A DNA stretch of 64,000 nt from a virus, in IMG/VR virus record IMGVR_UViG_3300033145_001324, positions 6,059 to 70,058 of that record, one strand, 5' to 3'. Positions 20,302-59,377 of this stretch are shown here, piece by piece (positions within the stretch are counted from its first letter, which is position 1; each line of letters begins with the position of its first letter). Under the pieces are notes generated by a model that was not told the origin of the DNA, searched no databases, and was given only the letters and a program-made list of their open reading frames with translations. The position numbers and the translations under genes were made by a program.

Positions 20302-20643
20302 ATGAAAATCGGAGATAAAGTATGGATTAAAGATGGTAATCATAGAGTATATGAAAAAGGAAGCAATGCTCCTATATACAGAGAATATTTTGTTGAACGT
20401 TATATTATAGGAGAAACTACTCAAAGTTGGATATTGGGGTATTACGAAGACAGCTTGGTGAAACATGGAAGCAAATATAAAAAGAGAGCTGAATTAAAAT
20501 CAATTTATATATCTTTACAAGAAGTTAATGACGAATGTTGGAGAGATAAGAATTGCTATCGTATTGCGGAATTAGTAAAAAGATGTTACAATGTTAAAAT
20601 ATTAAAAGATATTGAAAATATGCTTGTTAAAAAGGATTATTAA
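20302..20643 (+). CDS. Beta-barrel hypothetical phage protein
   Basis: MKIGDKVWI.D.N.RVY...I.GET..SWI pattern. Confidence 0.6.
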   Translation: MKIGDKVWIKDGNHRVYEKGSNAPIYREYFVERYIIGETTQSWILGYYEDSLVKHGSKYKKRAELKSIYISLQEVNDECWRDKNCYRIAELVKRCYNVKILKDIENMLVKKDY

Positions 20644-20647
20644 ACTT

Positions 20648-21661
20648 ATGTATATCAAAAAGAAAAAATTAACTAAAAAATTCTTGCTCAATAATTATAT
20701 AAAAAAGAAGAAATCTACAACTGATATTGCCAAAATGACAAAAAGAGTGGCTTCTTCAATACATTATAATTTGGAAAAATTTGGTATAAAAAAGAGAACT
20801 CGGGAAGAAGGTATTAGATTGGTCGGAGGGAAAATCAGCAAAAAAATGAAAGGAAGAATATTTTCTAAACAACATCTAACAAGACATCAAAAAGCTATGG
20901 AACAATTTAGAAAAACGGAATGGCAAGCAATTAAAGATGGCTCTATATATCAATGGAAAAAATGGAAAACTTTTAAAGAAAAAATAATGAAACAGGATAA
21001 CTATAAATGTGTAGTATGTGGCAAAAAAGCTAACACCATTCATCATAAAAAGAAGAAAGAAAAGTTTCCTGAATTATGTTGGAGAAGAAGAAATGTAATA
21101 AGTGTTTGTCAATCTTGTCATACGAAAATAGATAATCCTAATTCTCCTAAAAACAATACTCAAATAAGAATGATAAGAAGCTTAAAAGCTAAAGAACTAC
21201 AACTAAAAAAACAAATAACATATTATAAATCTAAAAGTCTAATTGATGATTTAACTAAAATTTACAATTACAGAAAATTGCATAGAGATATTAAGAAATA
21301 TAAAGCAAAACAAAAAAGATATAGCATTAATTACTTGATTGTATTAATAGATATAGACCATTTTAAAAAATTTAATGATAAATTTGGTCATAAATTTGGA
21401 GATAAGATTTTAATAAAAACTGCTAAAATATTAAAAAATTCAATCAGACAAGGTGATAATGTATATAGAGAATATAGAGGAGATGAATTTGTTTTGATAT
21501 TAAGCCATTCAAAAAAAGAAGATATACATATTTTAAATAGAATTAGAAAAGAATTAAAAAAGCACGATATAAAAATAAGTATAGGATATAATGAATTATG
21601 TGAAAATGTTTTAGAAATTGCAGACAAAAAAATGTATAACGAGAAGAGGAGGAAGAAATGA
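20648..21661 (+). CDS. HTH/NUMOD-HNH endonuclease fused to GGDEF (diguanylate cyclase-like) domain
   Basis: DNYKCVVCG...HH...NVISVCQSCH; then DDLTKIYN, IDIDHFKKFNDKFGHKFGDKIL, RGDEF, ISIG, ADKKMY. Confidence 0.85.
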   Translation: MYIKKKKLTKKFLLNNYIKKKKSTTDIAKMTKRVASSIHYNLEKFGIKKRTREEGIRLVGGKISKKMKGRIFSKQHLTRHQKAMEQFRKTEWQAIKDGSIYQWKKWKTFKEKIMKQDNYKCVVCGKKANTIHHKKKKEKFPELCWRRRNVISVCQSCHTKIDNPNSPKNNTQIRMIRSLKAKELQLKKQITYYKSKSLIDDLTKIYNYRKLHRDIKKYKAKQKRYSINYLIVLIDIDHFKKFNDKFGHKFGDKILIKTAKILKNSIRQGDNVYREYRGDEFVLILSHSKKEDIHILNRIRKELKKHDIKISIGYNELCENVLEIADKKMYNEKRRKK

Positions 21662-22292
21662 GCAAGGATACTGCGAGGAATTTAAGAGTAATAGAAACAG
21701 ATGAGAATAGATTTATAATATACAATTCACAAGATGAATATGTTTGCGGTGTTAAAGATAACGAAGCCAACGCTAAACGCATAGTGCATTGTGTTAATAA
21801 TTTTGATGAGTTGGTAAACTTGTTAAAAGACATATTAGAATGGGATGGGATTTTACCTCATAGTAAAGTAAGAATAAAACAAGCCATTAAAAATGCAGAG
21901 GTGAAATGATGGATAAATATAAAAAATATCCTGTCCCTAAAAAAGCAAAGGCGGAAAATCAAATATTATATATAATTGCTGGACTTGAGAAGCAAAAACA
22001 AGAACTTTTAGAGACTTGTAAATGGGCTTTAGAATATATTAGAAATAATAGCGTTGGGTGCTTAACAAGATATAATATAGAAGATAAACTTGAACAGGCT
22101 CTTAAAAATGCGGATATAAATTATGAAAGCTTATGAAGCTAGGGAAAAGATTTTGAAAATAGATAAGTGTCCAAAGTGTAATTGTAATGTTGCTGATGAT
22201 TGGGAATATGTCGATTTTAGTAATAAAAATGTAATAGAGTGCCCGCAATGTAACGAACACTTTTTCTTAGAAAAGTAAAAAGCAGAAATTAA

Positions 22293-22461: not shown

Positions 22462-23571
22462 ATGTTTTTAATTGTATGGTTATTTATATTTATAGGAATT
22501 CCTACTGCAATTGTATTGGGAATAATTAAAACTTTTAAATTCGTTACTGCTCCTTTATGTAATGAGGAAATAGATATAGAAGAACTTGAAGAAGGAGAAG
22601 AAGGTAAAGATGAGGCTTTAAAGGTTATTATTAAAGATAACAATATAGATACTTCTCGTATAGTAGAATATAATGGAGAGGAAGTAGCGAGCTTTGAGTT
22701 TCGTCCTCAAACGTGGAAACAGTTCATAGCTCAAGATGAAGCAAAGGAAAGAGTTAAAACTATAATCAAAAAAGCAGAGCGTGGAATACGTAGCCATCTT
22801 ATTTTATCAGCAATTAAAGGTCATGGCAAAACTACTTTTATAGAATTATTGGCAAAAGATATGGACGCTCATTTAATCAAGAGAATAGGAAAACAGATTG
22901 ATGAGGATAATCTTGTTGACATTATTAACGAAATTAATACAAGCGAAAGTAAGCACGTGATTTTCTTTATAGATGAAATAGATAGTATGGATTGGAAAGT
23001 TATTAAGGTATTAAATCCTATTATAGAGCAATTTGAAATTGATGGAAAAAGAATTAAACCTTTTACCTTTGCCTGTGCCACTATTAATAAACATATATTG
23101 GTAAAGCAAAATCCTGATACACTTGATAGAATTCCGCACCATATACAATTTAAAAGATATACTTCTGAAGATATTAGCAGAATAATTACACAGTATAAAA
23201 ATCAATTATATGGGGAGGAAATAATTTCAATAGATATATTAAATTCTATATCTAAAAATTGTAAATTTAACCCTCGAACAGCGATTGCGTTATTAGAAGA
23301 TTATGTAGTGGAAAAAAATATTCAAAAAGTATTAAGCAATTGTAACATTATCAAAAACGGATTAAACAGTATAGATGTAAGCATTTTGAAGGTCTTAAAC
23401 GAAAGCAAAAGAGCTATGGGAGCAAATGCACTTAGTATGAGGATTGGACTCGGTCAGAGCCAGTATATGAGCGAATACGAGCCATTTCTGGTGGAGTTTG
23501 GTTTTATAGCAAGGACTCCAAGCAGGGTGATTACAGAAAAAGGAACGAAATTTTTGGAGGAATTAAAATGA
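22462..23571 (+). CDS. ruvB: RuvB-like AAA+ ATPase with N-terminal transmembrane segment
   Basis: RPQTWKQFIAQ, GHGKTT, FFIDEID, FTFACAT, LDR, NPRTA, EPFLVEFGFIARTP; hydrophobic first ~22 aa. Confidence 0.8.
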   Translation: MFLIVWLFIFIGIPTAIVLGIIKTFKFVTAPLCNEEIDIEELEEGEEGKDEALKVIIKDNNIDTSRIVEYNGEEVASFEFRPQTWKQFIAQDEAKERVKTIIKKAERGIRSHLILSAIKGHGKTTFIELLAKDMDAHLIKRIGKQIDEDNLVDIINEINTSESKHVIFFIDEIDSMDWKVIKVLNPIIEQFEIDGKRIKPFTFACATINKHILVKQNPDTLDRIPHHIQFKRYTSEDISRIITQYKNQLYGEEIISIDILNSISKNCKFNPRTAIALLEDYVVEKNIQKVLSNCNIIKNGLNSIDVSILKVLNESKRAMGANALSMRIGLGQSQYMSEYEPFLVEFGFIARTPSRVITEKGTKFLEELK

Positions 23572-23776: not shown

Positions 23777-24250
23777 ATGAAAAAGAAAATTCCTTTAAAA
23801 TTTAATAATTACAGTAAAGCTGATAAAATAACTATTTCTAAAATAGGTAAGATAGTAAAAAAAGACTGCATACTTGACGCAAGTGTTGTCCAGTTATGCG
23901 ATTATTATTATGGTAAATATACTATTGAATTAACAAAAAAACAGAAACGAGCCATTTTACAATTAGCAGGAATTAAACATAAACAAAATAAAAAAGAGGC
24001 TGGAGAATGGGCAAAATGTGGAATATTTTATTTAGCTTATGAACAATTAACAAGAAAAAACAAAGCAAAAAAATTAGTAAAAAACAGCGAGAATTGGCAT
24101 TATGAAGGAGATATAAATAAGGTAATGGAATGTGCAGGGGAAATAGTTGCAAATGCGTTTGAGAAAGATAGAGAAGAAAATCAAATAATAAACCATTTAC
24201 GAAATTATTGTAAGGAGATATTAGATGGCTATAATAGACTTATTGATTAA
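23777..24250 (+). CDS. Hypothetical protein
   Basis: ORF track; overlapping stop/start operon structure. Confidence 0.55.
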   Translation: MKKKIPLKFNNYSKADKITISKIGKIVKKDCILDASVVQLCDYYYGKYTIELTKKQKRAILQLAGIKHKQNKKEAGEWAKCGIFYLAYEQLTRKNKAKKLVKNSENWHYEGDINKVMECAGEIVANAFEKDREENQIINHLRNYCKEILDGYNRLID

Positions 24251-25043
24251 ATTTAAAGAGAGTTTAATATTAGATGGGCTTGCGAAAAAAACAATCAGAG
24301 CCTATATATCTTGTATTAATACTCTATCAAATAATATAAATTTTGATGAGATAAATCAAGAAAAAGTTAATCAATTCTTTCTTAATTTAGAAGCTCCTGA
24401 TAATACTGTTAATCAATATAAAAAGGCTCTTATTAAATGGATAAAAGTTTTTGAATTAGATATACATGTTCCTAAGTTTAAACAAGCAGAGCATAAAATA
24501 CCTGAATATTTTAACGAAGATTATTTTCTTGATGACATTATACCTGCAATAGATATATTATTTCAGGACGAGATAAAAGTCAGATGTTTATTTTATTTAA
24601 TGTTTTATACTGGATTAAGAGTGGGAGAAATTGCCAGTTTAAAGAAAAAAGATTTTGATTTAAAAAATAAAAGAATAAACATTCAGAAAAGAAAAGCAAA
24701 AAATCCTATTGTAGTATTTTATCCTCAACAAATGTCAGACCTTATAGAATTACATTTTAACAATACTGCTGGAAATGAAGATGTATTTAATATTAAAGAG
24801 GAAGCTATTAGTTATTATTGTAAAGTATTAAGCGAGAATTTAAATACACATATTACTCCTCATACTTTCAGGCATAGTTTTAGCATTACTTATCTAAAAA
24901 AAGGCGGGAATTCTAAAAATTTACAAGGATTACTTGGACACAAATCAAGAGTTTCTACGTCTATATATGAACAGATGAGCGACGATGATAGGGAAAAGGA
25001 ATTTCGGAAAGTGATGAAAATCAAAAGAAAACCATTGGGGTGA
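24225..25043 (+). CDS. XerC/D-like tyrosine recombinase
   Basis: TGLRVGE, PHTFRHSF, LLGH and ST..Y catalytic motifs; no arm-binding N-terminal domain. Confidence 0.9.
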   Translation: MAIIDLLIKFKESLILDGLAKKTIRAYISCINTLSNNINFDEINQEKVNQFFLNLEAPDNTVNQYKKALIKWIKVFELDIHVPKFKQAEHKIPEYFNEDYFLDDIIPAIDILFQDEIKVRCLFYLMFYTGLRVGEIASLKKKDFDLKNKRINIQKRKAKNPIVVFYPQQMSDLIELHFNNTAGNEDVFNIKEEAISYYCKVLSENLNTHITPHTFRHSFSITYLKKGGNSKNLQGLLGHKSRVSTSIYEQMSDDDREKEFRKVMKIKRKPLG

Positions 25044-44097: not shown

Positions 44098-45972
44098 ATG
44101 CAAAAGAATATAATAGAAAGTAAAATATTAGATTATTTAAAAATAAAAAGAATCAAAGTAACAAAAAAAGGACCTACTCTTATCATAGATTGTCCTGTTT
44201 GCAAAGGCGAACAAGTATGTATTAAAATACCCAATGTTCATAAATTTTACTGTCATACCTGCCAAAAAGGTTATACTATCTTTGATTTTGCTATCGAACT
44301 TGAAAAGAAATATCCAGATAATGAAAAAGAGCAGATACATTTTTTAAAGGAATTACTGAATATAGATATAATTACATCTATTGATGAAGAAAATATTGAG
44401 AAGATATTAAAATTTTATGAACAAAACAGTTTCGATTTAGTTGCAATAGCCAAAAATCAAAAAATTCCGATAGAATCAGGATGGACTACTAAGAATCATA
44501 AAGATATTGTAGAATGGAAAAGATGGCTTGGGGATGGATTAAATATCGGGGTTAAAACTGGTAAAATGAGTGGAATAACTATTTTAGATGTTGACCAAAA
44601 GCCTATACCAGAAGAAATAAAGAAAATAATGGGGAATACTTTAATACAAGAAAGCACTCATGGTTATCATTTATTTTATAAATATGAAGAAGATTTACCT
44701 AAAACTCGTATAGATGAATATAAGATTGATTTAGAGAATGATGGCGGTCAAGTGGTAATATCTCCTTCTAAAATAGATAACATTAAACGTAAAATCTCAC
44801 TTACTCCAATTATTAAAATGCCTGACGAATTAAAGAAACTGATAGTAAGTAAAATCACAGTTCCTCGTAAGACTGCAAGCGAAAGTATAAGAGAAGCTAT
44901 TGATAGCGAATCATTTAAAATAGACCCAAAAGATTTGCAATTAATTAATAATGGATTAGAAGGTTGTTGCAATTCTTCCTTTACTAAATTGGGAGGAATT
45001 TTTCGTAAACAGTTGAATATTAAACAAACAGGATATGTCTTACATACTTTAAATAAACATCTTTTAGAAAAACCAATGCCTCCTAAAACTATAAACGATA
45101 TGTTAAGACAATTAGATAAATATTGTCATTTTGATGAAACTGAATTGGCTCATGAGATTGTAGATTATCTGAAACATGTAGAAGAATCGAATAGAACAGA
45201 AATTGCTATGGCTATAGTTGGAACCAATAGAGGAGAAGATAAGAAACGAGTTGATACGGTTTTAGCGTATTTGGTTAAAGAAGGGATTATTATAAAAGTA
45301 GGTAAAAACAATTATTCCATTATTAACAGTTTGGAATGGTCTGGTAAATTGTTAAATGTTGGAGTCCCTGTAGATTTCAAAATGCCATTTTTTCATGAAT
45401 GGGTTAATTTGAATTGGGAAGATTTAATTATAATAGGTTCTCGTAACAAATATGGAAAAACAACCCTTGCAATGAATATTGTAAAAAGATTTTTAGACCA
45501 AGGAATAGCAATAGATTATATATTTAATGAGAGTGGTGGTAAATATGCCAAAACAGCTTTGCATCTTGGTATGAAAGATGATGATTTTGATAGTGCTTGG
45601 GTCAAAGACCCAAATAAAGTTATTTTAAGAAAAAATAAAGTGACAATTTTTGACTGGGTTAAACCAACGGATTTTGCAAGAACTGATAATGTATTTGCTA
45701 ATTTAGTAGAAGCAGTTAAAAAGACACATGGGTTTCTTATATGTTTTGTTCAGTTAAGAGAAGAAGATACTTTCTTTGCAAAAGACCAAATAGCACAATT
45801 CCCTGCTATGGTTGCAAGATACTTATATGAAGATGAAATCGGAGAAAATACTAAATTTATAATTGACCAAGCCAGAGATGCAAAGGTCAGAGGAAAAAAA
45901 TGGGAAATTGTATGCAAATATGACTGGGATACTAAATTGGTTAAAACAATAGAAGAAATAGAAAATGAATAA
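44098..45972 (+). CDS. Zn-finger / bifunctional primase-polymerase / P-loop helicase-like fusion
   Basis: CPVC..CHTC; NIGVKTG..ILDVD..GYHLFY; C-terminal GKTT and IFDWV. Confidence 0.8.
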   Translation: MQKNIIESKILDYLKIKRIKVTKKGPTLIIDCPVCKGEQVCIKIPNVHKFYCHTCQKGYTIFDFAIELEKKYPDNEKEQIHFLKELLNIDIITSIDEENIEKILKFYEQNSFDLVAIAKNQKIPIESGWTTKNHKDIVEWKRWLGDGLNIGVKTGKMSGITILDVDQKPIPEEIKKIMGNTLIQESTHGYHLFYKYEEDLPKTRIDEYKIDLENDGGQVVISPSKIDNIKRKISLTPIIKMPDELKKLIVSKITVPRKTASESIREAIDSESFKIDPKDLQLINNGLEGCCNSSFTKLGGIFRKQLNIKQTGYVLHTLNKHLLEKPMPPKTINDMLRQLDKYCHFDETELAHEIVDYLKHVEESNRTEIAMAIVGTNRGEDKKRVDTVLAYLVKEGIIIKVGKNNYSIINSLEWSGKLLNVGVPVDFKMPFFHEWVNLNWEDLIIIGSRNKYGKTTLAMNIVKRFLDQGIAIDYIFNESGGKYAKTALHLGMKDDDFDSAWVKDPNKVILRKNKVTIFDWVKPTDFARTDNVFANLVEAVKKTHGFLICFVQLREEDTFFAKDQIAQFPAMVARYLYEDEIGENTKFIIDQARDAKVRGKKWEIVCKYDWDTKLVKTIEEIENE

Positions 45973-46639
45973 GGATGTAATTAAAATGTCAATAAAAATT
46001 TATAAAAATAAATGTAAATACCTCAATACTTTAACTGAAGAATTTTTAAGAAATTCTTATATATATAATAAAAACTCCACTAGAACTATAGCATTGAGTC
46101 TTAATTGTGATAAAAATATTATCCTTTATTGGTTGAAAAAATATAATATTAAAAGAAGAACTATAAGTGAAGCAAATAAAGGGAGAGTCTCTTTTCGTAA
46201 AGGCAAACATTTATCTAAATCACATGGAAATAACATACGACTCGCTTTAATAGGAAGAAAATTAACTAGAATTCATAGAATGAAAATTAGTGAAAACCAT
46301 GCAAATGTATCAGGTGTAAATAATGGATTTTATGGTAAAGAACACACACAAGCCCAAAGAAAAAAGTGGTCTTTGATTCATGGTGGTAATGGCAAGCCTT
46401 ATGATTATGATGAATATAATATAACGTTTTATAGAGCTCGTAAACAAATTTTATTAAGAGATAAAGATACCTGTCAAAAATGTTTTTCTAATGGGCTATG
46501 TGTTCATCATATAGATTATAATAAAAATAACAACAAATTAACTAATTTAATTGCCTTGTGTTCCAAATGTCATGGATTAACCAATTTTGATAGAGATTAT
46601 TGGTATGCTTATTTTACTTATATAAGGGAGAACAAATAA
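45965..46639 (+). CDS. NUMOD3-HNH homing endonuclease
   Basis: RD..CQKC..VHHIDYNK.NN...NLIALC.KCH..N..RDYWYAY. Confidence 0.85.
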   Translation: MNKDVIKMSIKIYKNKCKYLNTLTEEFLRNSYIYNKNSTRTIALSLNCDKNIILYWLKKYNIKRRTISEANKGRVSFRKGKHLSKSHGNNIRLALIGRKLTRIHRMKISENHANVSGVNNGFYGKEHTQAQRKKWSLIHGGNGKPYDYDEYNITFYRARKQILLRDKDTCQKCFSNGLCVHHIDYNKNNNKLTNLIALCSKCHGLTNFDRDYWYAYFTYIRENK

Positions 46640-50228: not shown

Positions 50229-51356
50229 ATGAAAAAATTATTTAAAAGAACATCAAAAGGCGAAATCCAAGAGTGGGAAATTTTTGTAAAAGGAAACGTT
50301 ATACATAAGGTATACGGTTTGCAAAAAGGTAAGAAACAACATATAACAGAAGAAATAACAGAAGGAAAGAATATAGGAAGAAGTAACGAAACCTTACCAG
50401 CAGAACAAGCAGAATTAGAAGCTTTTGCTATATGGACAAGAAAGAAAGAGAAAGATTATAGAGAATCAATTGATGATTTATCTTCTAAGGAAAAAACAAG
50501 CAGTTTTGGGGGCTATCTCCCAATGCTTGCTCACTCTTATAAAAAACATGGTCATAAAATTAAATGGGCTTGTTATTGTCAAGCGAAGTTTGACGGTTTG
50601 CGATGCATTAGTCGAAAAGATAATAATAAAGTTACTTTGTGGTTCAGGTCTGGTAAAAGAATACAGTCTATGCAACATATAGAAAAAGATTTAAATATTA
50701 TTATGAAAAATGGAGAGATTTTCGATGGGGAATTATATATCCACAATGCAGATTTTAATAAATTAGGAGGAAGTATCAGAAGAGAAAAGAATATGGACAA
50801 AACGATTGCTGAAAAAATACAATATTATATTTATGATTTCCCTCGTATTAAGACAGGTGAGAATTTGTTATTAGAAAATATACCTTATAAATATAGAATG
50901 GATGAATTTAATAGTAGAAAATTACCCTCTTCTTTAGTAAGAGTAAAAACAGAAACAATTTATAATGAAGACGAAATGAAAAAACTATTTTCCTATTACA
51001 TTGGACAAGGATATGAAGGTGTTATTGTTCGAAATGTTGGTTCTCCTTACGAACAAAAAAGAAGTTACAATTTATTAAAATACAAAGAGTTTGACGAAGC
51101 AGAATTTAAAATTGTAGGGTATGAAGAAGGCAGAGGAAAATTATCAGGAGCTGTTGGAGCTTTTGTATGCGTGCTTTCGAATGGAGAAACGTTTAAAGCA
51201 AAATTAAAAGGCAAAGACGTAACTGATTTGCTAATACATTATTTTAAAAATCCAAAAGAATTTATGGGTAAAGAGCTTACTGTGCAATTCCAAGGGTTAT
51301 CTAAAGACAACGTGCCGAGATTTCCAATCGGAAAAGCTATTCGTTTTGATAAATAA
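50229..51356 (+). CDS. ATP-dependent DNA ligase
   Basis: PMLA, KFDGLR, DGELY, EGVIVR, LLKYK, RFP. Confidence 0.92.
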   Translation: MKKLFKRTSKGEIQEWEIFVKGNVIHKVYGLQKGKKQHITEEITEGKNIGRSNETLPAEQAELEAFAIWTRKKEKDYRESIDDLSSKEKTSSFGGYLPMLAHSYKKHGHKIKWACYCQAKFDGLRCISRKDNNKVTLWFRSGKRIQSMQHIEKDLNIIMKNGEIFDGELYIHNADFNKLGGSIRREKNMDKTIAEKIQYYIYDFPRIKTGENLLLENIPYKYRMDEFNSRKLPSSLVRVKTETIYNEDEMKKLFSYYIGQGYEGVIVRNVGSPYEQKRSYNLLKYKEFDEAEFKIVGYEEGRGKLSGAVGAFVCVLSNGETFKAKLKGKDVTDLLIHYFKNPKEFMGKELTVQFQGLSKDNVPRFPIGKAIRFDK

Positions 51357-51367
51357 AGGAAATAAAA

Positions 51368-51967
51368 ATGAATAAAAAAGAATATGATAAAAGATATTAT
51401 CAAATTCATAAAAAACGATTATTAGCAAGTTCCAAAAAATATAAATCTTCTCATAAAGAAGAATCTAAAGTATATTTTAAAACCTATAGTCAAAAAAACA
51501 AACAAAGAATTTCTAAATATCAAAAGGATTATTATAAAAAATATAAAACTCAAATCCTCGCAAGAAATTTAAAATATGCTAAAGCTCACCCTGAAATAAT
51601 GAAAAAAGTGAGAAGAAAATTTTATTTAGAACGTCCTGATTTGATTTTATGGTATAGCATCAAAAGTAGATGTAAAATAAAAATTTTATCCAAATTGAAT
51701 ATTAGCAGGGGGTCTTTTATAAATTGGTATAATTCTCAAAAGAAAATATGTATATATTGTAATATTACAGAAGCAAATTGGCAGAAGGGTAAAGACTCTC
51801 TTAGAAAGTTATATTATAGACTTCAAGTAGATAGAAAGAATAATAATATAGGTTATTCTTTACGAAATATAGTTTTAGCTTGCCCAAGATGTAATTTAAT
51901 CAAATCTGATTTTTTTGATTATAAACAAATGTTAAAAATTGGGAGGATTGTAAATGCGATTAATTAA
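51368..51967 (+). CDS. HNH-like homing endonuclease
   Basis: Basic repeats then CIYC...VDRKNNNIGY...NIVLACPRCN..K. Confidence 0.75.
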   Translation: MNKKEYDKRYYQIHKKRLLASSKKYKSSHKEESKVYFKTYSQKNKQRISKYQKDYYKKYKTQILARNLKYAKAHPEIMKKVRRKFYLERPDLILWYSIKSRCKIKILSKLNISRGSFINWYNSQKKICIYCNITEANWQKGKDSLRKLYYRLQVDRKNNNIGYSLRNIVLACPRCNLIKSDFFDYKQMLKIGRIVNAIN

Positions 51968-58726: not shown

Positions 58727-59377
58727 ATGAAAATGAATTATTATATAACTAAAAAATTTATAAAAGAAAGTTTACCAAAATATACTCTTTTAGAAATGTC
58801 TAATAAAATAGGATGTAGTATAAATACTATATATAGAAGAATGAGACAATATAATATAAAAAAATTTAAAGTATCAGATATTCTAACAAACACTTTTTTG
58901 ATAAAAGAATATCTAAATAACAAAAAATCTCAAGAAAATATTGCTGATGAGATAGGATGCACTCAAGCATTTATAACTAAAAAGTTACAAGAATATAATA
59001 TTAAAGCTCGTTCTCAAACTGAAGCTATATCAGGGGACAAAAATCCTCATAGAATACATCCTGAGCTTTCTATTGGGAAGAACAACCCTGCTTGGATAGA
59101 TGGACGAAGTTATCTTCCTTATACTTCTGAATTTACTAATAAATTAAAATATCGTATTAGAGAAAGGGATACTTTTACTTGCCAAAATTGTGGTATTATA
59201 GAAAAAACACATTTAAAAACATATAAGAGAGTTTTAGATATTCATCATATAGATTATAATAAAGAAAATTGTAAAGAAACTAATCTAATTACGTTATGCC
59301 AAAAATGTAATCTTTATGCAAATATTAATAGAGATTACTGGTATGCATACTATAGTTATATAATAAAGGAGAAGTAA
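58727..59377 (+). CDS. HTH-HNH homing endonuclease
   Basis: NPAWIDG, RD.FTCQNC, HHIDYNK.NC...NLITLC..C..N..RDYWYAY. Confidence 0.85.
   Translation: MKMNYYITKKFIKESLPKYTLLEMSNKIGCSINTIYRRMRQYNIKKFKVSDILTNTFLIKEYLNNKKSQENIADEIGCTQAFITKKLQEYNIKARSQTEAISGDKNPHRIHPELSIGKNNPAWIDGRSYLPYTSEFTNKLKYRIRERDTFTCQNCGIIEKTHLKTYKRVLDIHHIDYNKENCKETNLITLCQKCNLYANINRDYWYAYYSYIIKEK

What the first reader, a model, noticed from the sequence alone, without database searches (positions are those of the whole stretch)
20648..21661. Homing-endonuclease-type HNH nuclease fused to a diguanylate-cyclase (GGDEF) domain in a phage early region
Seen: one frame holds an HTH like those at the N-termini of the window's own HNH genes (45965, 58727), a NUMOD-like segment, an intact-looking HNH core, a coiled-coil linker and a GGDEF domain from ~21245 (D.LT..YN, IDIDHFK..ND..GH..GD, RGDEF, ISIG, ADKKMY). 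The signature is REYRGDEF rather than RxGGDEF, but the metal-binding Asp residues and guanine-binding N/D residues are kept. Known: GGDEF domains make or bind c-di-GMP and need dimerisation through upstream coiled coils. Inference: either a nucleotide-regulated phage nuclease, or a phage cyclase dimerised on DNA that reprogrammes host c-di-GMP signalling (motility, biofilm, receptor display). I know of no described protein with this architecture.
Basis: partly seen in the sequence, partly recalled or inferred. Interest (0 to 1): 0.85.

Follow-up and report, generated by a model that had tools for sequence, protein, structure and literature searches.

The report
Phage HNH nuclease fused to cyclase
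An uncultured phage carries one intact gene that joins a DNA-cutting HNH enzyme to a small enzyme of the kind that makes the bacterial signal c-di-GMP; the join is real and recurs in four other metagenomic proteins, but the nuclease part looks like a mobile add-on that comes and goes, not an obligate partner.

Summary
Window 20648-21661 (+) is one open 337-codon gene: HTH (res ~9-58), zinc-finger HNH core (117-165), stalk helix (170-196) and a shortened GGDEF domain (199-337). Scores: Pfam GGDEF 98 bits; PHROG HNH families down to 7e-15; Pfam HNH below its cut-off. It is not an assembly artefact, because four other metagenomic proteins have the same architecture (P0002, P0121, P0355, P0356; 38-53% identical).

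The cyclase half belongs to a lineage of sensor-less GGDEF proteins of about 155-175 aa. One of them sits stand-alone at the syntenic spot of a related phage (L005). On the GGDEF tree the five fused proteins lie beside stand-alone sisters. One clade for the five is rejected (p-AU 3.5e-5), while their HNH halves may be one lineage (p 0.49). So the HNH module is gained or lost repeatedly at one junction, as a homing endonuclease would be.

Functional coupling is neither shown nor excluded. Catalytic residues of both halves are conserved. This copy reads RGDEF with a hairpin one residue longer, so its cyclase activity is uncertain.

I found no described HNH-GGDEF protein. This scan had noted sensor-less phage GGDEF cyclases on other DNA, but not this fusion. 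Verdict: a new variant of known kinds, of moderate interest.

The parts
20648..21661 (+). Whole fused gene, 337 codons plus stop (protein P0001)
   Evidence: ORF list, sequence and translation. Full-length relatives are P0002, P0121, P0355 and P0356.
20672..20821 (+). N-terminal helix-turn-helix-like DNA-binding module (residues ~9-58)
   Evidence: Four helices at 10-58 with pLDDT 93-95. Shared with the window's HNH genes at 45965 and 58727. No Pfam family matched, so the HTH label rests on the model and on PHROG 'HNH endonuclease/DNA binding' neighbours.
20867..20995 (+). Helical region leading into the HNH core (residues 74-116; W-x-K-W-x-x-F motif)
   Evidence: Helices 74-97 and 100-116. 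Conserved with HNH-only proteins P0190, P0206, P0259 and P0003.
20996..21142 (+). HNH beta-beta-alpha zinc-finger nuclease core (residues 117-165): C121, C124, H132, H133, N149, C154, C157, H158
   Evidence: PHROG HNH families. These residues except H158 are invariant in the five fused proteins and in seven HNH proteins. Strands 130-133 and 150-153 plus helix 155-162. Foldseek top hit is phage GVE2 HNH endonuclease 5h0m, E 1.4e-3, prob 1.00.
21143..21172 (+). Fusion junction (residues ~166-175). HNH-only relatives end here and stand-alone cyclases begin here.
   Evidence: P0190 aligns to residue 172 and ends 4 residues later. Stand-alone GGDEF proteins start opposite residues ~170-185.
21155..21235 (+). 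Stalk helix / putative coiled coil (residues 170-196)
   Evidence: Single long helix in the model. Foldseek hits to coiled-coil cyclases 3i5c, 6ttr, 7e6g and 5llx. Dimer prediction gave no verdict.
21242..21658 (+). Shortened GGDEF domain (residues 199-337)
   Evidence: Pfam and TIGRFAM matches. Best PDB sequence match is the DosC GGDEF domain 4zve, 1.4e-16. pLDDT >95. About 18 profile positions shorter than Pfam's model.
21446..21457 (+). R267-Q-G-D270, an RxxD motif at the position of the product-inhibition (I) site
   Evidence: Read from the sequence. In 26 family rows R267 is invariant and position 270 is D in 21 and E in 5. The I-site role is recalled knowledge of PleD/WspR. The spacing to the signature is 6 residues here, against 5 in members without the extra hairpin residue.
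21473..21490 (+). Signature hairpin Y276-R277-G278-D279-E280-F281 (RGDEF in place of GGDEF, hairpin one residue longer)
   Evidence: Sequence. HMMER alignment to DosC. In 26 family rows position 277 is G 14, S 2, A 2, T 2, N 2, Q 1, Y 1, E 1, R 1, while D279, E280 and F281 are in all 26 and G278 in 25.
45965..46639 (+). Stand-alone HTH-HNH gene of the same phage (paralogous HTH, different HNH subtype)
   Evidence: phrog_8446 5.2e-16. BLASTP to P0001 4e-7. Alignment A4.
58727..59377 (+). Second stand-alone HTH-HNH gene of the same phage
   Evidence: phrog_8446 5.3e-30. BLASTP to P0001 1e-7. Alignment A4.

Best explanation
The gene encodes two complete proteins joined end to end. Residues 1-172 are an HTH-HNH endonuclease. 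Residues 173-337 are a full 'minimal' phage diguanylate cyclase, made of a stalk helix and a shortened GGDEF domain with no sensor.

Shown here:
- The cyclase module belongs to a lineage of stand-alone proteins of about 155-175 aa.
- A related phage has the stand-alone form at the same genomic position.
- Five fused proteins lie on at least three branches of the cyclase tree next to stand-alone sisters.
- Their HNH halves are compatible with one lineage.

Inferred:
- The HNH module is a selfish, homing-endonuclease-like element that sits in frame at the 5' end of the cyclase gene. Either it invaded that site repeatedly, or it is an old fusion that was lost repeatedly.
- The two activities mostly work independently.
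- The cyclase half would dimerise through the stalk and condense 2 GTP to c-di-GMP during infection, with feedback through the RxxD site. This would reset host behaviours controlled by c-di-GMP.
- The HNH half would bind DNA through the HTH and cut HNH-less alleles or competitor DNA.
- The fusion gives the nuclease the cyclase gene's expression signals and perhaps a dimerising stalk.

In this copy the signature is RGDEF with a hairpin one residue longer. I put retained cyclase activity at roughly 50-60%.
For: Domain calls.

End-to-end join: HNH-only P0190 aligns to residue 172 and ends four residues later, and stand-alone cyclases start opposite residues 170-185.

Five proteins share the architecture: 5 of the 120 best listed hits, out of 289 at E<=1e-10, cover at least 72% of the query. 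All five hit both PHROG HNH and Pfam GGDEF.

Synteny: the window, L005 and L040 share collinear genes. L005 has a 172-aa stand-alone GGDEF gene with a stop 7 codons upstream of its ATG, about 1 kb before a 61%-identical AAA+ gene. The window and L040 have the fused form.

GGDEF tree of 32 rows: P0355+P0123 supported 100/96 and P0356+P0167 supported 97/92. Starred branches force at least 3 changes of state. One clade for the five fused is rejected, p-AU 3.5e-5.

HNH tree of 9 rows: one clade for the five fused is not rejected, p-AU 0.49.

Identities of the two halves are incongruent. For example P0001/P0002 are 70% in HNH and 53% in GGDEF, while P0001/P0355 are 44% and 62%.

Active-site conservation in 26 family rows: D235, N243, R274, D279, E280, F281 and K333 in 26 of 26; D252 in 24 of 26; G278 in 25 of 26.

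HNH conservation: C121, C124, H132, H133, N149, C154 and C157 are invariant in the five fused proteins.

Fold: GGDEF with stalk, like 3i5c, 6ttr and 7e6g. HNH like phage GVE2 HNH.

The same phage carries two further HTH-HNH genes.

First-position variants can be active: natural AGDEF and SGDEF enzymes, and G, H or M variants of VCA0965 (PMC3974145, abstract and passages).
Against: No cleavage site or empty-versus-occupied allele pair could be aligned at the DNA level, so 'homing' is inference from distribution only.

The HNH core is closest in fold to GVE2-type phage HNH proteins. From memory these are terminase-associated, not classic homing enzymes.

Both halves keep catalytic residues across 38-53% identity. 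The HNH core of P0001/P0002 is more conserved (70%) than the cyclase (53%). That is not what a decaying selfish gene shows, and it would fit a selected joint function.

In VCA0965 most of the 19 substitutions at the first signature position, by implication Arg too, lost activity. The extra hairpin residue has no tested precedent that I found.

The host is unknown, so whether it uses c-di-GMP is unknown. The phage has no EAL or PilZ gene.

The dimer prediction gave no verdict and is reported under Tried and rejected.
Confidence: 0.55

Rival explanations
1. Integrated machine. The two halves regulate each other in one of two ways. Either GTP or c-di-GMP binding at the GGDEF A-site or the RxxD I-site switches the HNH nuclease, making a one-chain analogue of cyclic-dinucleotide-activated HNH effectors such as CBASS Cap5. 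Or DNA binding by HTH-HNH brings two stalks together and turns on the cyclase, making a DNA-sensing cyclase.
For: Both catalytic sets are invariant in five fused proteins that are only 38-53% identical. The architecture persisted on several branches. The RxxD motif is kept, R267 in 26 of 26 rows and D or E at 270 in 26 of 26. The stalk helix is directly continuous with the HNH tail. Foldseek lists Cap5 HNH domains among structural neighbours of the N-terminal half, at weak E 0.56-1.7.
Against: Most relatives listed are stand-alone: 23 of 26 rows. One is stand-alone at the syntenic site. Fused proteins have stand-alone sisters. The histories of the halves are incongruent. No sensor domain specific to such coupling is present. 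No other c-di-GMP gene is in the phage.
Confidence: 0.2
2. Dead or retooled cyclase. In this protein, and in the other members with the longer hairpin, the GGDEF half no longer makes c-di-GMP. It serves as a dimerising scaffold, as a GTP or c-di-GMP receptor, or it makes another nucleotide product.
For: RGDEF plus a one-residue insertion in the catalytic hairpin. In VCA0965 only A, G, H and M of 20 residues at that position kept activity. 12 of 26 family rows are non-Gly at this position and two have further insertions, so the hairpin is unusually plastic. The domain is about 18 profile positions shorter than Pfam's model and ends right after the Lys-bearing helix.
Against: Receptor-type GGDEF domains (PelD, PopA and FimX; recalled, and named in PMC3974145) have lost the acidic and base-binding residues. 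Here D235, N243, D279, E280 and K333 are in 26 of 26 rows and D252 in 24 of 26, a pattern expected for a working active site. Natural AGDEF and SGDEF enzymes are active. A fused member has a canonical GGDEF (P0355).
Confidence: 0.2
3. Artefact. A sequencing or assembly error removed a stop between two adjacent genes, or two contigs were joined chimerically.
For: Reads could not be examined, as no run was listed. The contig is a single metagenomic assembly. GC content drops to 19-20% in the GGDEF half.
Against: The same junction and reading frame occur in four other proteins. One lies on another contig of a syntenic phage that I read (L040); the other three are separate clusters in the protein collection, on short contigs I could not read. 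The junction region is conserved in length with no in-frame stops.
Confidence: 0.02

Closest known systems
Stalk/coiled-coil diguanylate cyclases: DgcB coiled coil + GGDEF (PDB 6ttr), GCN4-zipper-WspR GGDEF (3i5c), SiaD (7e6g), DosC GGDEF domain (4zve)
   Same: GGDEF fold preceded by one long helix. Same metal-binding, guanine-binding and phosphate-binding residues and an RxxD motif. Probably works like them: stalk dimerisation brings two GTP-loaded domains together.
   Different: No sensor or receiver. The domain is shortened by about 18 profile positions and ends at the Lys-bearing helix. The signature is RGDEF with a longer hairpin. It carries an N-terminal HTH-HNH nuclease.
Sensor-less small GGDEF proteins of phages and metagenomes (P0123-P0238 here). 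Annotated phage cyclases include Bacillus phage G gp350 and SP-15 'diguanylate cyclase'. See also earlier notes of this scan, e1-3795894 and e1-6051396.
   Same: The C-terminal 165 residues are 43-59% identical to these proteins of 155-215 aa. One sits at the same genomic position in a related phage. Relatives in 185,579 species genomes reach only 26-44% identity.
   Different: Those are stand-alone. This one and four others carry the HNH module. Phage G and SP-15 match only at 34-35% over the GGDEF half.
Phage HNH endonucleases: PHROG 8446/144 'HNH endonuclease', GVE2 HNH endonuclease (PDB 5h0m), free-standing homing endonucleases of phages
   Same: CxxC...HH...N...CxxCH zinc-finger core. An HTH ahead of it, as in the two stand-alone HNH genes of this phage. 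Patchy presence among related genomes.
   Different: It is not free-standing: it has no stop of its own and is translated as one chain with a cyclase. Pfam HNH is below its cut-off for this copy. No target site is known.
GGDEF-bearing polyvalent proteins of phages and conjugative elements (Iyer et al. 2017, PMC5512222; passages read)
   Same: A mobile element joins a GGDEF domain to an unrelated enzymatic domain in one polypeptide. The authors suggest that invasive elements use cyclic nucleotide signals.
   Different: Those are giant proteins of 2-15 domains predicted to be delivered on invasion. This is a 337-aa two-module protein in a block of small genes next to replication genes. HNH+GGDEF is not mentioned in the passages I saw, and supplements were closed.
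CBASS Cap5 (SAVED-HNH effector activated by cyclic dinucleotides)
   Same: An HNH nuclease in one chain with a nucleotide-binding domain. It appears among weak structural neighbours of the N-terminal half.
   Different: The sensor there is SAVED, not GGDEF. It is a host defence effector, not a phage gene. No evidence here for activation by a nucleotide.

Membership tests
GGDEF domain / diguanylate cyclase (Pfam PF00990, TIGR00254) | Profile match above the curated cut-off | tested here: met
   PF00990 98.3 bits against 23.8. TIGR00254 103.1 bits against 37.4.
GGDEF domain / diguanylate cyclase (Pfam PF00990, TIGR00254) | GG[D/E]EF signature in the beta-hairpin | tested here: not met
   The signature reads R277-G-D-E-F, and the hairpin is one residue longer than in DosC. 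The published working definition is (G/S/A)G(D/E)EF (PMC3974145).
GGDEF domain / diguanylate cyclase (Pfam PF00990, TIGR00254) | Metal-binding acidic residues, guanine-specifying Asn and Asp, and phosphate-binding Lys (roles recalled from PleD) | tested here: met
   D235, N243, D279, E280 and K333 are present and invariant in 26 of 26 family rows. D252 is present and in 24 of 26.
GGDEF domain / diguanylate cyclase (Pfam PF00990, TIGR00254) | A means of dimerisation that brings two GTP-loaded domains together | tested here: inconclusive
   A long helix at 170-196 is modelled, and structural neighbours are coiled-coil cyclases. Self-association itself was not established by any result.
GGDEF domain / diguanylate cyclase (Pfam PF00990, TIGR00254) | Synthesis of c-di-GMP from GTP | not testable with these tools
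   Needs an enzyme assay or in-cell measurement.
HNH endonuclease (beta-beta-alpha-metal fold) | Profile match | tested here: inconclusive
   Pfam PF01844 18.0 bits, below the 21.4 cut-off. PHROG HNH families give 6.8e-15 and 4.7e-13. The relative P0002 passes Pfam at 23.1 bits.
HNH endonuclease (beta-beta-alpha-metal fold) | Catalytic His, Asn and metal His, plus the CxxC...CxxC zinc site | tested here: met
   C121, C124, H132, H133, N149, C154, C157 and H158 are present. All but H158 are invariant in the five fused proteins; P0121 has Tyr at 158.
HNH endonuclease (beta-beta-alpha-metal fold) | Beta-beta-alpha fold | tested here: met
   Strands 130-133 and 150-153 and helix 155-162. Foldseek top hit is GVE2 HNH 5h0m, E 1.4e-3, prob 1.00, followed by other HNH domains. 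The model's mean pLDDT is only 73.
Free-standing phage homing endonuclease | Patchy presence and absence at one site among related genomes or alleles | tested here: met
   Occupied in the window and L040, empty in syntenic L005. At least 3 changes of state on the GGDEF tree, with monophyly of the fused proteins rejected.
Free-standing phage homing endonuclease | Own ORF with its own start and stop | tested here: not met
   It is translated in frame with the cyclase, with no stop between them.
Free-standing phage homing endonuclease | Cleavage of the endonuclease-less allele and copying into it | not testable with these tools
   No target site was identified. DNA of most relatives was unavailable.
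Polyvalent proteins of phages (Iyer et al. 2017) | Large multidomain (2-15 domains) protein of a mobile element, predicted to be delivered into the host on invasion | tested here: not met
   Two enzymatic modules in one chain, but only 337 aa. It lies among small genes upstream of AAA+, primase, ligase and polymerase genes, not in a virion module. Definition taken from passages of PMC5512222.
CBASS Cap5-type nucleotide-activated HNH effector | SAVED sensor domain fused to HNH | tested here: not met
   No SAVED or other PADLOC effector model matched. The only PADLOC hits are HNH-type (PDC-M01B, PtuB) at 3.9e-7 or weaker.

The most novel reading that the evidence does not exclude
The fused proteins are single-chain signal-and-effector devices of phages. 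Either DNA recognition by the HTH-HNH half switches on synthesis of c-di-GMP or another nucleotide made possible by the unusually plastic signature hairpin. Or GTP or c-di-GMP bound to the GGDEF half gates DNA cutting. The second case would let the phage tie nuclease attack, on host DNA, rival phages or HNH-less alleles, to the host's second-messenger state.
Probability: 0.15. Interest if true: 0.85.

Novelty: new variant of a known kind. Interest (0 to 1): 0.5.

Why it matters
Phage-encoded c-di-GMP enzymes are barely studied. This work defines a compact, sensor-less cyclase lineage that looks phage-borne. It sits next to the replication genes in the two phages whose neighbourhood I could read. 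It has closely related stand-alone and nuclease-fused forms, and natural variation at the first signature position (G, S, A, T, N, Q, Y, E, R) with every other catalytic residue fixed. That makes it a ready-made natural series for testing how strict the GGDEF motif really is.

The in-frame, repeatedly gained or lost HNH module is also an unusual way for an endonuclease gene to live inside a phage gene. If the halves turn out to be coupled, it would be a new kind of nucleotide-linked nuclease. If not, the finding is a tidy example of a selfish-gene fusion and of modest importance.

Tried and rejected
Near-identical DNA in 50,697 phage records: no match.

tblastn of the protein against the same records: 81 records match, all through the GGDEF half, and 0 of 81 cover 80% or more.

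A single-protein scan of IMG/VR gave 2 distant loci. Scans with P0121 and P0123 gave 1 weak HNH locus and none.

Genome scan of 185,579 species: 88 relatives, 80 kept, best-segment identity 26-44%, none reaching the HNH half.

Separate HNH gene next to a GGDEF gene: 0 of 45 GGDEF ORFs in the 87 loci then held had one within 3 kb. A 'two adjacent genes' precursor was therefore not found.

phrog_11823 matched residues 14-299 of P0001 and looked like a possible fused family. In the other four fused proteins the match covers only the stalk and GGDEF, or in P0121 starts inside the HNH part, so I dropped the idea.

Proteins with 64-76% coverage in the junction-centred search (P0271, P0276, P0299, P0312, P0325) were read and have no HNH.

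ESM Atlas: only GGDEF clusters, none with HNH. Only clusters of 50 or more members are searched.

Promoter and terminator scan: 53 promoter-like sites against 48.3 expected and 2 terminator-like against 1.3. Uninformative.

tRNA scan: none.

First GGDEF tree with three fused proteins: unresolved, monophyly not rejected (p-AU 0.18). It was superseded by the five-protein tree. From that tree I left out P0217 (a 107-aa fragment), P0222 (long branch) and P0164.

Homodimer prediction of residues 166-337: score 0.33, below the mark of 0.42, with controls at 0.00. The verdict was 'no answer', so it counts neither way.

Sequencing runs: none was listed, and no RNA holder was listed. Read laying was not used, and the junction could not be checked on reads.

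Literature. Of the 19 papers holding HNH+GGDEF+phage I saw the listing and read passages of three (PMC7824862, PMC5512222, PMC7159879); none describes this fusion. I also read passages of PMC12657218 (Panoptes/mCpol), which is not relevant to membership. No paper uses RGDEF, TGDEF or NGDEF as a cyclase motif. Searches for phage-encoded cyclases gave nothing on this lineage. Supplementary tables, for example the architecture lists of Iyer et al. 2017, were closed and might list it.

The host could not be inferred.
Full report
WHAT IS THERE. Window 20648-21661 (+) is a single open frame of 337 codons. Its ATG lies 4 nt after the stop of the upstream gene (20302-20643). Its stop is overlapped by the ATG of the next gene (ATGA at 21658-21661). 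The window is bases 6059-70058 of a 70,058-bp IMG/VR virus record estimated 75% complete. Around the gene lie many small + strand ORFs followed by replication genes: an AAA+ clamp-loader/RuvB-like gene at 22462, a primase at 44098, a ligase at 50229 and a DNA polymerase at 51954.

DOMAINS.
- The C-terminal half is a GGDEF domain. Pfam PF00990 gives 5.1e-28 and 98.3 bits (cut-off 23.8) over residues 198-333, and TIGR00254 gives 1.3e-29.
- The best solved-structure sequence match is the DosC GGDEF domain 4zve, 1.4e-16.
- The N-terminal half matches PHROG 'HNH endonuclease' families: phrog_8446 6.8e-15 over residues 6-165 and phrog_144 4.7e-13. Pfam HNH reaches only 18.0 bits against a cut-off of 21.4.
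- The zinc-finger HNH motif is complete: C121, C124, H132, H133, N149, C154, C157 and H158.
- No NUMOD family was found.
- An AlphaFold2 model (mean pLDDT 85.5) shows four helices at 10-58, a beta-beta-alpha unit at 130-162, one long helix at 170-196 and a GGDEF domain with pLDDT above 95.
- Foldseek puts the whole model next to coiled-coil cyclases (5llx, SiaD 7e6g, GCN4-WspR 3i5c, DgcB 6ttr; E about 1e-11).
- A separate model of residues 1-172 (pLDDT 73) lands next to phage GVE2 HNH endonuclease (5h0m, E 1.4e-3, prob 1.00) and then other HNH domains.
- The N-terminal HTH is shared with the phage's two stand-alone HNH genes at 45965 and 58727. The HNH core itself is closer to small HNH-only proteins such as P0190, at 51% identity over 83 residues.

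THE JOIN IS REAL AND CLEAN. HNH-only P0190 aligns up to residue 172 and ends four residues later. The stand-alone cyclases begin opposite residues 170-185. So two complete proteins are joined end to end.

The same architecture occurs in four other metagenomic proteins:
- P0002: 336 aa, 53% identity.
- P0121: 324 aa.
- P0355: 340 aa.
- P0356: 349 aa.

They were found by a sequence search and a profile search. All have PHROG HNH and Pfam GGDEF matches. In the five-protein alignment the HNH residues C121, C124, H132, H133, N149, C154 and C157 are invariant. So are the GGDEF residues D235, D237, N243, D252, R267, R274, G278, D279, E280, F281 and K333. Reads could not be examined, but the same junction in four other proteins, one read here on its DNA (L040), makes an artefact very unlikely.

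THE CYCLASE HALF BELONGS TO A SMALL SENSOR-LESS LINEAGE. The exhaustive representative search lists many proteins of 155-215 aa that are 43-59% identical to residues ~184-337. One of them, P0126, is encoded in a 100-kb IMG/VR contig (L005). There it stands alone, with a stop 7 codons before its ATG, about 1 kb upstream of an AAA+ gene 61% identical to the window's. The two contigs share further collinear genes. A second contig, L040 with P0002, is also collinear with the window and carries the fused form. A scan of one genome per 185,579 prokaryotic species found only 26-44% identical relatives. Earlier notes of this scan on other DNA also describe sensor-less minimal GGDEF lineages in phages (e1-3795894 and e1-6051396).

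THE HNH MODULE COMES AND GOES.
- On a maximum-likelihood tree of the GGDEF part (32 rows), fused P0355 is sister to stand-alone P0123 (100/96) and fused P0356 is sister to stand-alone P0167 (97/92).
- Well-supported branches force at least three changes between fused and stand-alone.
- A tree with the five fused proteins held together is rejected (p-AU 3.5e-5).
- On the HNH part (9 rows), the five fused proteins as one clade are not rejected (p-AU 0.49).
- Pairwise identities of the two halves disagree. P0001/P0002 are 70% in HNH and 53% in GGDEF. P0001/P0355 are 44% and 62%.

One HNH lineage is thus associated with several cyclase branches at one and the same junction. The cause is either repeated invasion of the 5' end of the cyclase gene or an old fusion that was repeatedly lost. 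Either way the cyclase does not need the nuclease. The patchy distribution at a fixed site is what homing endonuclease genes show.

One caveat applies. L005 is the only stand-alone case checked on DNA.

IS THE CYCLASE ACTIVE? HMMER aligns 'NVYREYRGDEF' with DosC 'YVFR-YGGDEF'. The first Gly is therefore Arg, and the hairpin has one extra residue.

In 26 family rows the first signature position is G in 14, S in 2, A in 2, T in 2, N in 2, and Q, Y, E and R in 1 each. D235, N243, R274, D279, E280, F281 and K333 are in all 26, G278 in 25 and D252 in 24. Residue roles are recalled from PleD.

This is the pattern of a working active site with a tolerant first position, not of a decayed receptor domain. 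Experimentally, AGDEF (VCA0965) and SGDEF (ECA3270) enzymes are active. In VCA0965 only A, G, H and M of 20 residues at that position kept activity (PMC3974145, abstract and passages). I found no paper on RGDEF, TGDEF or NGDEF motifs. I put retained activity of this copy at roughly 50-60%. D252 being Asp argues for guanine specificity (recalled).

An RxxD motif (R267-D270) is present. It lies 6 residues before the signature, against 5 in members without the extra residue. The phage has no second GGDEF, no EAL and no PilZ gene.

MECHANISM I COMMIT TO (about 0.55). The protein has two modules that mostly act independently.
- The stalk+GGDEF module dimerises and makes c-di-GMP when expressed with the neighbouring replication genes, perturbing host c-di-GMP-controlled behaviour. 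Fold, residues and lineage are shown. Activity, timing and effect on the host are inferred.
- The HTH-HNH module is a selfish, homing-type nuclease that rides in frame on the cyclase gene. Intact motif, gain and loss, and paralogues in the same phage are shown. Cleavage and homing are inferred.

RIVALS.
- A truly coupled machine, either a nucleotide-gated nuclease or a DNA-activated cyclase (0.2). It is favoured by conservation of both active sites over 38-53% identity. It is disfavoured by the stand-alone sisters.
- A dead or retooled GGDEF in this copy (0.2).
- An artefact (0.02).

COMPARISON WITH WHAT IS KNOWN. Each module is a member of a known superfamily. The cyclase half works like stalk-activated cyclases (3i5c, 6ttr, 7e6g) but fails the strict GG[D/E]EF test. 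The nuclease half is an HNH enzyme but is not free-standing. GGDEF domains in phage polyvalent proteins were catalogued in 2017 (PMC5512222, passages). Those are giant delivered proteins, and HNH+GGDEF is not mentioned in what I could read.

I found no described HNH-GGDEF protein by any of these routes:
- Papers.
- 50,697 phage records.
- Atlas clusters of 50 or more members.
- Earlier notes of this scan.

VERDICT. This is a new variant of known kinds, of moderate interest (0.5). Its main value is as a natural test series for signature-motif tolerance and as an unusual in-frame lifestyle for an endonuclease gene.

Noticed in passing
Proteins P0123, P0129, P0131 (relatives, no window coordinates): Three stand-alone small cyclases carry a CxxC motif, and P0131 a CxxC-x6-CxxC, immediately before the stalk helix. 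This is where the fused proteins have the last CxxC of the HNH core. It could be a remnant of a lost HNH module or an unrelated zinc knuckle.
   Followed up: partly
Family alignment A1; window 21473-21490: The signature hairpin of this small cyclase lineage is unusually plastic. 12 of 26 rows are non-Gly at the first position. Six of the 26 carry one extra residue, and P0126 and P0217 read G-A-D-E-F with two extra residues. All other catalytic residues are fixed.
   Followed up: partly
L005 6497-6769 and L040 8124-8384: A small zinc-ribbon plus transmembrane protein (41% identical between the two contigs) overlaps the 3' end of the cyclase gene in both relatives. In the window that position is taken by an unrelated 83-aa ORF at 21658-21909.
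   Followed up: partly
P0121 (relative): In this fused protein the His after the second CxxC of the HNH core is Tyr (CQSCY), with a His four residues on. This may be a decaying or variant nuclease.
   Followed up: no
window 21362-21448 (residues 239-267) versus P0006/P0011: A 29-residue stretch (FKKFND...NSIR) is 24 of 29 identical to small canonical GGEEF proteins P0006 and P0011. These proteins are otherwise only about 44% identical over the domain, and one lies on a 158-kb contig. This could be a recombination patch or strong local constraint.
   Followed up: partly
window 24225-25043: A 272-aa ORF is 32% identical to an L005 ORF (9008-9799) whose sequence looks, by my own reading of its C-terminal motifs, like a tyrosine recombinase. 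This hints at a temperate lifestyle or a dimer-resolution function.
   Followed up: no
window 21150-21600: GC content falls to 19-20% across the stalk and first half of the GGDEF domain, against 25-31% in neighbouring genes.
   Followed up: no
window 22462-23571: The AAA+ gene downstream has an N-terminal hydrophobic segment. PHROG calls it a clamp loader (6.5e-21), while a first-reader note of this scan reads it as a membrane-anchored RuvB-like motor. It is 61% identical in L005.
   Followed up: no
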